DNA of 64,000 bases from Escherichia coli (lineage in GTDB: Bacteria; Pseudomonadota; Gammaproteobacteria; Enterobacterales; Enterobacteriaceae): the NCBI RefSeq assembly GCF_017348835.2, contig NZ_CP071375.1, one strand, 5' to 3'. The stretch's first letter is position 1, and each line of letters starts with the position of its first letter. Shown piece by piece: positions 51,001-54,000 of the stretch. Position numbers: made by a program.

Positions 51001-54000
51001 TGCAGCCGGGCAAACTCCCTTACACTTGCCGAATCCGGCAATGTCGTTTTTACCTCGCGCAGTAACGACCGTGAGGCAATCATCAACTGCCCCCAAAGTT
51101 TTCGCGCTTCAACGTAACGGGCGTAACCGGCATTATTACGAAAACCAAGAAAAATGGCGATGGCGACACCGAGAATGCTGAACGGTGCGAGGGTGAATTT
51201 GATGCCCAGATGCGTGTACCAGGGCAGCATGAAAATAACAGCGATAGAAAAGAGAAAATTGAGTAGTAAGCGCGAGGATATCTTGGATAATACTGAGCCA
51301 TGCCAGACAAAAATACGGCGCAGCCAGTGTTGTTGTGGACGAACAATCATGGTTATCTTCAGGCGTGGAAAAGTCGCCCTATTAAACGTGATTACGATCA
51401 CATTCTCAAGACGCTACTTACAAATTACCTACAAGCTTACAATATTAACAGGCGCTGCATGTGGCACCTGTTAATGATAAAGGCACATAGGATGTTGTAA
51501 CTAATATGGTGCAATAAGAAACCCGGTCGAAACCGGGTTCAGAGTATTAGCACAACGGGCGTACAGCTTCGCGCATCCCTTTTTCGAGAATCGCATCCAG
51601 GTCATTAGCAACCTGCTCGACCAGACCAGGCACTTGCGTCAGGTCCTGCTCCCAGTGGTCTTTTTCTGCCAAAACAATGGCTACCAGTTCCTGGGTACCG
51701 ATAACACGGTCACGATACTGGCTCCAGAGTTGCTGATAACGTTCCAGCCAGTGTGCATCGTCCTGTACCGGATATGTTTCTCCGTTACTCTCACCGCGAT
51801 AGAACGCAATCAATGCCGCTAATGCGAAAGTAAGGCGCGCCGGAAGTGTGCCGTTTGCCTTCTGCCCTGCCAGCAGCTGCGGCAGGATGCGGGTACGGAA
51901 CTTGGTCATACCGTTGAGCGCGATAGACAGCAGCTGATGCTTAATGTACGGGTTACGGAAACGCCCGGTGACTGCACTGGCGAAAGATTCCAGTTCATCA
52001 CGAGGCAAATCCAGTACCGGAATAATTTCTTCGTAGATGGCTTTCTCAACGAATGCGCAAATTTCAGCATCGTTCATCGCTTCACCTACGGTATCCAGCC
52101 CTGCCTGGAACGCCACCGGCACCAGCGCGGTGTGTGCACCGTTGAGTATTGCCACTTTGCGTTCTTTATACGGTTTAATATCGTCAACAATCAGCACGTT
52201 GAGCGGATATTTGTCCAGACGCAGTTCAGTCGCTAAGGATTTCGGCCCCTGAATCACAAACAGGTAAAAGTGTTCAGCGGTGTCGAGGAAACCATCGTGA
52301 TAACCCAGTTCTTCTTCCAGTTTAGCCACTTCATCGCGCGGATAACCGGTAACGATACGGTCCACCAGCGTAGAACAGAAGCTGTTAGCCTGATCCAACC
52401 ATTGAATAAATGCTTCTGGCAGTGCCCACTCTTGCGCATAGCGCAGCACCAGTTCACGCAACGCGTCGCCATTGTAGTCGATCAACTCACACGGAATAAT
52501 GATCCAACCTTTATCCAGCGCACCGTTGAAATGGCTAAAGCGTTCGAACAGCAGACGGGTCAGTTTTGCGGGATAACTTACCGCTGGCGCGTCATCGAAT
52601 TTATCGCCCGCATGGTAGCTGATACCCGCTTCGGTGGTGTTAGAGAAAACAAAGCGCATTTCCGGGTTGTGCGCCAGTTTCAGGAATTCATCGTATTCAC
52701 TGTAGACGCTGATTTCACGATTAACCGAGCGAATCAGACGCGCGTCGCTGACCGCTTCCCCCTTCTCATTCAGGCCACGGATAATGGTGGTGTACAGACC
52801 ATCCTGCGTGCTCAGTGACGGCGGGAATGAAGTTTCAATCGGACGAACAACGACCACGCCAGAATTCAGATCGGTGTGCTCATTCAGGAGATCTATTTGC
52901 CAGTCAACAAAGGCGCGCAGGAAGTTACCTTCACCAAACTGAATGATACGTTCTGGATACTGTGCACCGGGAAAATCGCGACGATTTAGTGTTTTCACAA
53001 TGGGTTCCCTTCTGATTAGTCATACAACCTGTTTGAATTGGTTCGACAGGTTAGCAAACTTTAATACGCCTAACCCCTGTTTTGATCAACTCCTGATGAT
53101 TAATGAGCAGTTTTATGAGAAAAGTGTGGCGCGGATCATGGTTTTATCGAGGAAACACGCCTTTTCTTAGATCATAAAGTGGTAGAACACATTGCATTTA
53201 AATCGCGCAGAATGAATAAAGATGTCAGACAACTTCCTCACCGTAACGCATAGTGCTGGTACGGTTGCGCCCATCTTTCTTCGAGCGATACAGACACGTA
53301 TCAGCTTCGACCATCAATTTATTAAAGTCATCGGTCAGCGTTCGGTACGATGCGCGACCACTACCGACGCCAATACTTACCGTGAGATAAAGCGTTTTTT
53401 GTTGCCAGGTGAATGGTTGCAGTTCAACGCCTTTACGGATTTTTTCCGCCATTAGCAGACCATCGACAGGATTCACCGACGGCACTGCAACAGCAAATTC
53501 TTCGCCGCCCATGCGCGCCACCAGCCCCTTATCACCGACAATCTTCTGAATATGCCGGGCAAACACGCTTAACACTTTATCGCCACATTCATGTCCATAG
53601 TTATCGTTAATACTTTTGAAATAGTCGATATCAAGCAGCATGACAGTCAGATGTTATGTCTGTTTCAGCGATGGACTTTTCAGCGCCTCATAAAGGCCGG
53701 ACCGTGAGTAAACCTGAGTCAGAAAATCAAAGTCGGCTCGCAGCGCAACTTGCTTCATTAGCGAATTGATCGCTGCCACGCTAAAAGAAACCATAATTGG
53801 GCATATCGCCATCGTGGCAATACCGAGACGTGCGGAGAACATTTCCGGAATGGAGAACGGCGAACCGACCGAGATATCAATCACCGAATTTGCCACCAGT
53901 ACGATTTCCACCGCACCGGTGACAAAGGTCAACAGACATGTTACCTGCGGCGTATAGCGCACTGCACACCAGATTAATGCAGGCAGCGGGAACGCCAGAC

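What the first reader, a model, noticed from the sequence alone, without database searches (positions are those of the whole stretch)
53026..53052. Perfect 7-bp inverted repeat with 13-bp spacer just upstream of uxaB
AACCTGT-ttgaattggttcg-ACAGGTT lies immediately upstream of the uxaB start. The inner ATTGGT resembles GntR-family ExuR/UxuR operator half-sites, but the outer 7-bp arms are unusually extended and could form a cruciform or bind a second factor.
Basis: partly seen in the sequence, partly recalled or inferred. Interest (0 to 1): 0.3.

Follow-up and report, generated by a model that had tools for sequence, protein, structure and literature searches.

The report
uxaB promoter and ExuR repressor operators
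The inverted repeat is real, but it is an ordinary by-product of the known control region of the E. coli galacturonate gene uxaB, where the promoter's -10 element and two adjacent binding sites for the ExuR repressor overlap.

Summary
It is not statistically special. The window holds 122 perfect inverted repeats of at least 7 bp, against 72±9 in shuffles.

A 17-bp ExuR operator model (AAnTTGT-N3-ACAAnTT) was built only from the K-12 exuT, exuR and uxaC control regions. Its three best hits in the whole 64-kb window all lie upstream of uxaB.
- **O1:** 53036-53052, sense AACCTGT-CGA-ACCAATT.
- **O2:** 53014-53030, sense AGGTTGT-ATG-ACTAATC. It overlaps the other arm by 5 nt.
- **Promoter:** the first arm also covers 5 of 6 bases of the published -10 element (CTAACCT). 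The published transcription start falls inside the spacer.

O1, O2 and TGnTAAnnT are conserved at fixed positions in 70 or more Enterobacteriaceae. The 7-bp complementarity is confined to Escherichia and a few relatives.

An mRNA hairpin is excluded for the mapped promoter, and a cruciform is implausible. One residual oddity remains: other genera carry different inverted repeats at the same spot.

Verdict: a known kind of operator/promoter region, of low interest.

The parts
53046..53052 (-). Inverted-repeat arm (sense AACCTGT). It is the promoter-distal half-site of ExuR operator O1 and covers 5 of 6 bases of the -10 hexamer.
   Evidence: Sequence. Half-site PWM score is 5.1 bits in the forward orientation. 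The -10 element 'CTAACCT' comes from PMC4447067 Table S3.
53026..53032 (-). Inverted-repeat arm (sense ACAGGTT). Its first two bases (AC, 53031-53032) lie in the O1-O2 linker. The last five (AGGTT) are the start of the O2 upstream half-site.
   Evidence: CAGG(T/C)T is nearly invariant across genera.
53036..53052 (-). ExuR operator O1 (sense AACCTGT-CGA-ACCAATT), centred 46 nt upstream of the GTG. It spans the -10 region and the transcription start.
   Evidence: PWM 13.7 bits, rank 3 of 63,984 positions in the window. It is present at -45 to -47 in 22 of 25 representative genera. ACCAAT is invariant in 77 aligned sequences.
53014..53030 (-). ExuR operator O2 (sense AGGTTGT-ATG-ACTAATC), centred 24 nt upstream of the GTG and 22 bp from O1. 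It lies in the transcribed leader.
   Evidence: PWM 9.2 bits, rank 18 of 63,984. It shares the 10-mer GTTGTATGAC with the K-12 exuT operator. GTATGAC is nearly invariant. It sits at -23 to -25 in most genera.
53048..53056 (-). Extended -10 promoter element TGcTAACCT (hexamer TAACCT at 53048-53053, TG at 53055-53056).
   Evidence: PMC4447067 Table S3 lists uxaB as 'AAGTTTG CTAACCT GT...'. T, G, T, A, A and the final T are invariant in 77 Enterobacteriaceae sequences.
53038..53038 (-). Published transcription start of uxaB, 40 nt upstream of the GTG and inside the spacer of the repeat.
   Evidence: PMC4447067 Table 1 gives 1608744 in U00096.2 coordinates. This was converted by +1976 to NC_000913.3 position 1610720, with the uxaB start at 1610680. 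The offset comes from my knowledge of the two K-12 versions. The position is uncertain by a few nt: 53038 lies 10 nt past the hexamer, and Table S3 shows about 6-7 nt.
51547..52998 (-). uxaB coding sequence (tagaturonate reductase, 483 aa, GTG start).
53075..53089 (-). Invariant block TTGATCAAAACAGGG, centred about 41-44 nt upstream of the start. It is a likely class-II CRP/FNR activator position (TTGAT is an FNR half-site).
   Evidence: Conservation. An FNR ChIP peak at uxaB overlapping the CRP site is reported in PMC3688515. Assigning that site to this block is my inference.
53177..53193 (-). Distal ExuR-type box (sense AATGTGTTCTACCACTT).
   Evidence: PWM 15.0, rank 2 in the window. It is conserved in Escherichia species, and one related box occurs in Citrobacter.
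53219..53235 (-). Distal ExuR-type box (sense AAGTTGTCTGACATCTT), overlapping the dgcF stop codon.
   Evidence: PWM 16.3, rank 1 in the window. It is conserved in Escherichia species only.

Best explanation
The repeat lies in the core control region of uxaB. RNA polymerase uses an extended -10 element (TGcTAACCT, 53048-53056) and starts transcription at about 53038.

The hexuronate repressor ExuR is a GntR/FadR-family dimer. It binds 17-bp pseudo-palindromes of the form AAnTTGT-N3-ACAAnTT. Two of them lie in tandem here, 22 bp (about two helical turns) apart.
- O1 (53036-53052) covers the -10 element and the start site.
- O2 (53014-53030) lies in the early transcribed region.

Occupancy of O1 blocks polymerase binding or open-complex formation. 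O2 adds a roadblock or cooperative binding. Inducer releases ExuR.

The 7-bp inverted repeat is a side effect of this layout. One arm is the weak half-site of O1, which is also the -10 element. The other arm overlaps the weak half-site of O2. The half-site core AAnTT is self-complementary. In the Escherichia lineage the O1 half-site drifted from AAGTTAT/AACTTAT to AACCTGT, which happens to extend the match to 7 bp.

**Shown here:** sequence, operator similarity, conservation, and the position relative to the published -10 element and start.

**Inferred:** actual ExuR occupancy of O1 and O2, and the occlusion or roadblock mechanism.
For: 1. The PWM was built only from the K-12 exuT, exuR and uxaC control regions. 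Those sites were located using the published UxuR operator AAATTGGTATACCAATTT (PMC8092373). Its top three hits in the 64-kb window are all in the 226-bp uxaB-dgcF spacer. O1 is rank 3 and O2 is rank 18 of 63,984.
2. The common form of O1 in other genera (AAGTTATTACACCAAT) matches the K-12 uxaC operator (AAGTTATCACACCAAT) at 15 of 16 bases. O2 shares GTTGTATGAC with the exuT operator.
3. O1 and O2 sit at fixed distances (about -46 and -24/-25) from the start codon. This holds across Escherichia, Citrobacter, Enterobacter, Klebsiella, Kosakonia, Kluyvera, Raoultella and others.
4. The published -10 element CTAACCT and start 1608744 place the promoter on top of O1. TGnTAAnnT is invariant.
5. The literature states that ExuR represses uxaB (PMC8612250). 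It also reports uxaB induced by glucuronate or by uxuR deletion (PMC10016265).
6. In the E. coli register only 64% of alignment cells pair. There is no covariation beyond shuffles.
Against: - The PWM rests on only three sites (six half-sites). The primary operator papers (Rodionov 2000, Suvorova 2011, Blanco & Mata-Gilsinger 1986) could not be read.
- No binding data for ExuR at uxaB were available.
- The published UxuR 18-mer consensus is not discriminating. It gives O1 only 11 of 18 matches in the window (12 of 18 in K-12), and 103 window positions score as well.
- O2 scores modestly, and part of its conservation could instead reflect leader or ribosome-binding constraints.
- The published start lies 10 nt past the -10 hexamer, further than usual.
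- The -66 to -22 region is enriched in inverted repeats across genera. Of the unique sequences, 28% have one of at least 7 bp, against 0-9% in 23 control windows. Drift alone does not obviously predict this.
Confidence: 0.8

Rival explanations
1. The inverted repeat is itself a selected DNA-level element. It could be a hairpin or cruciform, or a symmetric site for a second dimeric factor. It would bracket the transcription start and modulate RNA polymerase or ExuR.
For: - Many genera carry an inverted repeat at the same place, though with other sequences and registers. Enterobacter has TGATAAG-N13-CTTATCA. Klebsiella indica has AACCTGATAA-N14-TTATCAGGTT. K. pneumoniae has AACCTGA-N20-TCAGGTT. 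Intestinirhabdus has an 11-bp repeat.
- 28% of unique sequences have a perfect repeat of at least 7 bp at -66 to -22, against 0-9% in 23 control windows of the same loci.
- In the Enterobacter/Klebsiella register, 77% of cells pair, against 31-52% when the partner is slid.
- One pair (columns 18/40) switches between A-T and G-C, with 0 of 500 shuffles reaching the observed count.
Against: - The registers differ by 4 (the Enterobacter arms) to 7 (the K. pneumoniae left arm) nt, and the spacers are 4, 13, 14, 15, 17 and 20 nt. That does not fit a protein with fixed geometry.
- Most pairing comes from columns that are conserved for other reasons: the extended -10 on the left and O2 on the right (shuffle mean 75.8% against 76.7% observed).
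- The single covarying pair is phylogenetically confounded.
- A 7-bp stem with a 13-nt loop has only -6.5 kcal/mol as single-stranded DNA. That is a poor cruciform former.
- CTGT-N13-ACAG does not fit LexA spacing (N8).
- The same arms also occur inside the pqqL coding sequence.
Confidence: 0.1
2. The repeat forms an RNA stem-loop at or near the 5' end of a uxaB transcript. The transcript would come from an upstream start such as TTGATC-N17-TATTAA, or from read-through out of dgcF. The stem-loop would affect mRNA stability or translation.
For: - TTGATC-N17-TATTAA would start transcription 1-3 nt before the repeat (sequence).
- No terminator is predicted between dgcF and uxaB.
- In other genera the outer pairs of the alternative repeat are mostly G-U-compatible on the sense strand only.
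Against: - The published -10 element and start place +1 inside the spacer, so the upstream arm is not in the mRNA.
- The invariant TGnTAAnnT supports that promoter.
- TATTAA lacks the key final T, is not conserved, and was not picked up by the promoter scan.
- The 43-nt leader from the mapped start folds worse than shuffles (z = +1.8). The 65-nt version is not exceptional (z = -0.9).
- There is no Rfam match even at E ≤ 10.
Confidence: 0.05

Closest known systems
ExuR/UxuR operators of the E. coli hexuronate regulon (exuT, uxaCA, exuR, uxuAB-gntP, uxuR)
   Same: The half-site is the same (AAnT[T/G]GT / ACCAATT). The location overlaps the promoter of a hexuronate catabolic gene. O1 of other genera nearly copies the uxaC operator, and O2 shares the core of the exuT operator.
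   Different: - At uxaB two operators lie in tandem, 22 bp apart. Escherichia has two more boxes 140-185 bp upstream.
- The sites fit a 3-nt central spacer (TTGT-NNN-ACAA). The UxuR sites at uxuA, gntP and uxuR have a 2-nt spacer (TGGT-NN-ACCA).
- The E. coli O1 upstream half-site (AACCTGT) departs from the AAGTTAT seen in most genera.
Other GntR/FadR-subfamily operators with 17-bp odd symmetry (PdhR AATTGGT-N3-ACCAATT, LldR, FadR TGGT-N3-ACCA)
   Same: Same length, the same 3-nt central spacer and the same TnGT...ACnA core. Several also lie over or just downstream of the transcription start. This rests on my own knowledge of these families and was not tested here.
   Different: They belong to different regulons and effectors. 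No evidence here suggests that PdhR, LldR or FadR bind at uxaB.
Cruciform-forming inverted repeats
   Same: Perfect complementarity of the two arms.
   Different: The arms are only 7 bp and the spacer is 13 nt. The single-strand hairpin has -6.5 kcal/mol. Known extruding cruciforms have longer arms and short central loops (my own knowledge).

Membership tests
ExuR (GntR/FadR-family) operator | A 17-18-bp pseudo-palindrome matching the operator pattern of other ExuR-controlled promoters. | tested here: met
   With a PWM built from the K-12 exuT, exuR and uxaC sites, O1 scores 13.7 bits (rank 3 of 63,984) and O2 scores 9.2 bits (rank 18).
ExuR (GntR/FadR-family) operator | Match to the published UxuR/ExuR 18-mer AAATTGGTATACCAATTT. 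| tested here: inconclusive
   The window matches at 11 of 18 and K-12 at 12 of 18. 103 window positions score 11 or more, so this consensus is not discriminating.
ExuR (GntR/FadR-family) operator | Position overlapping the promoter of a hexuronate-pathway gene. | tested here: met
   O1 covers the -10 element CTAACCT and the start 1608744 reported in PMC4447067. The gene is uxaB.
ExuR (GntR/FadR-family) operator | Conservation upstream of orthologous genes (phylogenetic footprint). | tested here: met
   ACCAAT and GTATGAC are invariant or nearly invariant. The sites sit at about -46 and about -24/-25 in nearly all of 25 representative genera.
ExuR (GntR/FadR-family) operator | Physical binding of ExuR, and loss of repression when the site is mutated. 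| not testable with these tools
   Only literature statements that ExuR represses uxaB were found (PMC8612250).
Cruciform-forming or structural inverted repeat | Long arms with a short loop, giving a stable extruded hairpin. | tested here: not met
   7-bp arms, a 13-nt spacer and -6.5 kcal/mol as single-stranded DNA. Repeats of this size occur 122 times in the window.
Cruciform-forming or structural inverted repeat | Complementarity maintained across species by compensatory change. | tested here: not met
   In the E. coli register 64% of cells pair. Covariation equals the shuffles (188 of 500 shuffles are as high).
5'-UTR RNA stem-loop | Both arms are transcribed in the mRNA. | tested here: not met
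   The published start (53038) lies in the spacer, and the upstream arm overlaps the -10 element.
5'-UTR RNA stem-loop | Match to a described RNA family. | tested here: not met
   No Rfam 15 match at E ≤ 10 in 52850-53350.
LexA (SOS) box | CTGT-N8-ACAG spacing. | tested here: not met
   The sequence shows CTGT-N13-ACAG. The consensus is from my own knowledge.

The most novel reading that the evidence does not exclude
Inverted repeats of changing sequence and register bracket the uxaB transcription start in many Enterobacteriaceae (Escherichia, Enterobacter, Klebsiella, Intestinirhabdus). This could mean selection for a DNA-level hairpin, cruciform or symmetric second-factor site. Such an element would tune promoter opening or ExuR occupancy, independently of the ExuR operator dyads.
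Probability: 0.08. Interest if true: 0.4.

Novelty: already known. Interest (0 to 1): 0.12.

Why it matters
This matters little beyond correct annotation. It shows that the palindrome flagged upstream of uxaB is the ExuR-controlled promoter/operator region of a classical sugar-acid regulon, not a new element.

Three useful by-products came out of the work.
- The ExuR-type sites here fit a 17-bp model with a 3-nt centre better than the usually quoted 18-mer.
- uxaB carries two tandem proximal operators. In Escherichia it also carries two distal boxes that could support looping.
- The promoter-proximal region is unusually rich in shifting inverted repeats across genera. This is a cheap hypothesis to test with reporter mutants.

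Tried and rejected
- **RNA hairpin in the leader:** rejected because the published -10 element and start put +1 inside the spacer, and the leader is poorly structured.
- **Known RNA family:** no Rfam match.
- **Terminator or canonical sigma-70 promoter:** the simple scan found none in 52900-53300. The real promoter is an extended -10 type with a weak -35, which that scan cannot see.
- **Cruciform:** rejected on arm and loop size and on folding energy.
- **LexA-like box:** the spacing is wrong.
- **Published UxuR 18-mer as a scanner:** not discriminating. It was replaced by a 17-bp model from three K-12 sites.
- **The same-arm repeat at 14462-14478:** it might have signalled a recurring motif, but it lies inside the pqqL coding sequence.
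- **Reading the primary operator papers:** Suvorova 2011, Bouvier 2018 and a DOI look-up are not held.
- **Searching the paper library for the operator strings:** nothing relevant.
- **Genome-wide start-site tables:** PMC3415461, PMC4161252, PMC2760140 and PMC4782308 have no uxaB entry, or the files were cut.

Full report
**1. The observation**

The + strand reads AACCTGT (53026-53032), ttgaattggttcg (53033-53045) and ACAGGTT (53046-53052). The arms are perfectly complementary.

The ORF at 51547-52998 on the minus strand is uxaB (tagaturonate reductase, GTG start). The same 401 bp occurs in 5,410 of 5,426 complete E. coli genomes with that annotation. In K-12 the gene is b1521, with dgcF upstream. 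On the uxaB sense strand the repeat reads AACCTGT-CGAACCAATTCAA-ACAGGTT and occupies -54 to -28 relative to the GTG.

The repeat is not statistically remarkable. The window contains 122 distinct perfect inverted repeats with arms of at least 7 bp and spacers of at most 20. Shuffles give 72±9.

**2. What lies there: the operators**

The published UxuR operator is AAATTGGTATACCAATTT (PMC8092373). Scanning K-12 control regions with it picked out three sites:
- AAGTTGTATGACAAGTT upstream of exuT;
- AAGTGGTATAACAAATA upstream of exuR;
- AAGTTATCACACCAATT upstream of uxaC.

These are best read as 17-bp pseudo-palindromes, AAnTTGT-N3-ACAAnTT. This is the odd-centred layout typical of the FadR subfamily. 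The UxuR sites at uxuA, gntP and uxuR instead have a 2-nt centre.

A PWM made from the six half-sites of these three sites, none of them from uxaB, was run over the whole window. The three best of 63,984 positions all fall in the 226-bp spacer between dgcF and uxaB:

| Site | Coordinates | Score (bits) | Sense sequence |
|---|---|---|---|
| Distal box | 53219-53235 | 16.3 | AAGTTGTCTGACATCTT |
| Distal box | 53177-53193 | 15.0 | AATGTGTTCTACCACTT |
| O1 | 53036-53052 | 13.7 | AACCTGT-CGA-ACCAATT |
| O2 | 53014-53030 | 9.2 (rank 18) | AGGTTGT-ATG-ACTAATC |

O2 lies 22 bp downstream of O1.

One arm (53046-53052) is the weak half-site of O1. The other arm (53026-53032) consists of two linker bases plus the first five bases of the O2 upstream half-site. 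The half-site core AAnTT is self-complementary, so about 5 bp of complementarity between any two half-sites comes for free.

The plain 18-mer consensus gives O1 only 11 of 18 matches, and 103 window positions do as well. The odd-centred model is what makes the site stand out.

**3. The promoter**

PMC4447067 lists an experimentally validated uxaB start at 1608744 (U00096.2). Its Table S3 gives the -10 region as 'AAGTTTG CTAACCT GT...'. The sequence identifies the element directly: the hexamer TAACCT is at 53048-53053, preceded by TG at 53055-53056.

Converting the coordinate (+1976 to NC_000913.3, from my knowledge of the two versions; uxaB start at 1610680) puts +1 at 53038. That is 40 nt upstream of the GTG and inside the spacer of the repeat. 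It lies 10 nt past the hexamer, further than usual. The table itself suggests 6-7 nt. Either way the start is within the spacer, and the upstream arm is promoter DNA, not transcript.

PMC3688515 reports an FNR ChIP peak at uxaB that overlaps the CRP site. The invariant block TTGATCAAAACAGGG (53075-53089) is centred about 41-44 nt upstream of the start. I infer that it is that activator site.

**4. Comparative test**

Eighty uxaB loci from Enterobacteriaceae were fetched and their upstream regions compared.

Invariant or nearly invariant elements are:
- TG-n-TAA-nn-T (the extended -10);
- ACCAAT (the O1 strong half-site);
- CAGG(T/C)TGTATGAC (the O2 upstream half and centre);
- the TTGATCAAAACAGGG block.

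O1 and O2 are found at about -46 and about -24/-25 in nearly all genera. The common O1 (AAGTTATTACACCAAT) matches the K-12 uxaC operator at 15 of 16 bases. O2 shares GTTGTATGAC with the exuT operator.

The O1 weak half-site varies:
- AAGTTAT in most genera;
- AACTTAT in Klebsiella;
- AACCTAT in the Citrobacter freundii group;
- AACCTGT in Escherichia, C. amalonaticus and Intestinirhabdus.

Accordingly the repeat in the E. coli register is 7 bp only in those last lineages. It is 5-6 bp in other Citrobacter and absent elsewhere. Only 64% of alignment cells pair, and covariation does not exceed shuffles. One Escherichia species (L002) has already lost it (GCGGGTT).

**5. Mechanism**

The best-supported reading is ordinary repressor control. 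An ExuR dimer on O1 occludes the -10 element and start. A second dimer on O2, two helical turns away, acts cooperatively or as a roadblock.

The literature states that ExuR represses uxaB (PMC8612250). It also reports that uxaB is induced by glucuronate and by uxuR deletion (PMC10016265).

Binding at these exact bases is inferred, not shown. I recall that Rodionov et al. 2000 and Suvorova et al. 2011 predicted ExuR sites at uxaB, and that Blanco & Mata-Gilsinger 1986 sequenced its control region. None of these could be read here, so that is a lead, not evidence.

**6. Rivals**

*RNA stem-loop.* This is excluded for the mapped promoter because one arm is not transcribed. The 43-nt leader is less structured than shuffles (z = +1.8). 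There is no Rfam match.

*Cruciform.* This is implausible for a 7-bp stem with a 13-nt loop (-6.5 kcal/mol as single-stranded DNA).

*Second factor.* No known motif fits; LexA needs N8. The same arms occur by themselves inside pqqL.

One observation keeps a small door open. Other genera carry different inverted repeats at the same place:
- Enterobacter: TGATAAG-N13-CTTATCA;
- K. indica: AACCTGATAA-N14-TTATCAGGTT;
- K. pneumoniae: AACCTGA-N20-TCAGGTT;
- Intestinirhabdus: an 11-bp repeat.

Of the unique sequences, 28% have a perfect repeat of at least 7 bp at -66 to -22. Twenty-three control windows of the same loci give 0-9%. In the Enterobacter/Klebsiella register 77% of cells pair, and one pair covaries between A-T and G-C.

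Most of that pairing is between columns conserved for other reasons: the extended -10 on one side and O2 on the other. The registers and spacers differ between lineages. The sequences are also related by descent. I therefore give this structural reading about 10%.

**7. Verdict**

The ExuR half-site idea is right. The 'extended arms, second factor or cruciform' idea is not supported. The feature belongs to a known kind of operator/promoter region and is of low interest.

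Noticed in passing
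window 53177-53193 and 53219-53235: Two further ExuR-type 17-mers lie 140-185 bp upstream of the proximal operators and 42 bp apart. They are the two best PWM hits in the whole window. One overlaps the dgcF stop codon. Both are conserved in Escherichia species, one related box occurs in Citrobacter, and they are absent from other genera. They could serve looping with O1/O2.
   Followed up: partly
window 53225-54643 (minus strand), stop at 53654-53656: dgcF (a diguanylate cyclase) carries an in-frame stop after ...SPSLKQT, just before the GGDEF domain. This splits it into ORFs of 329 and 138 aa. K-12 has a different, shorter 315-aa form.
   Followed up: partly
window 53043: The + strand has t here (sense A, the third base of the central 3-nt spacer of O1, -45 from the GTG). 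K-12 and the closest strain PE164 have the other base. None of 5,426 complete E. coli genomes matches the window's 61-mer exactly. This column is variable among genera, so the change is probably neutral.
   Followed up: yes
window 14462-14478: AACCTGT-GCC-ACAGGTT has the same two 7-mers as the finding but with a 3-nt spacer. This was not seen in any of 100 shuffles. It lies inside the pqqL (M16 metallopeptidase) coding sequence, far from any promoter.
   Followed up: partly
window 53075-53089: TTGATCAAAACAGGG is invariant in nearly all Enterobacteriaceae uxaB upstream regions, more so than the ExuR sites. TTGAT is an FNR half-site. AAAACAGGG is not explained by the CRP or FNR consensus. In other genera it continues as ...GGGTTTCAT, which loosely resembles a KdgR-type AAAC...GTTT dyad.
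   Followed up: partly
L063, L069, L075, L077, L081 (positions about 1900-2000): Franconibacter, Siccibacter and Buttiauxella lack O1 at -46 and have a different upstream sequence (for example CTGCTACGGTGAGCAG). Only an O2-like AGGTTGTCTGATAATAA is retained in some. Buttiauxella has a strong box at -105 instead.
   Followed up: no
whole window against E. coli genomes: The 401 bp around the finding are 99% or more identical to only 3 of 5,426 complete E. coli genomes and 95-99% identical to the rest. The window therefore comes from an uncommon E. coli lineage; the closest genome is pig isolate PE164.
   Followed up: no
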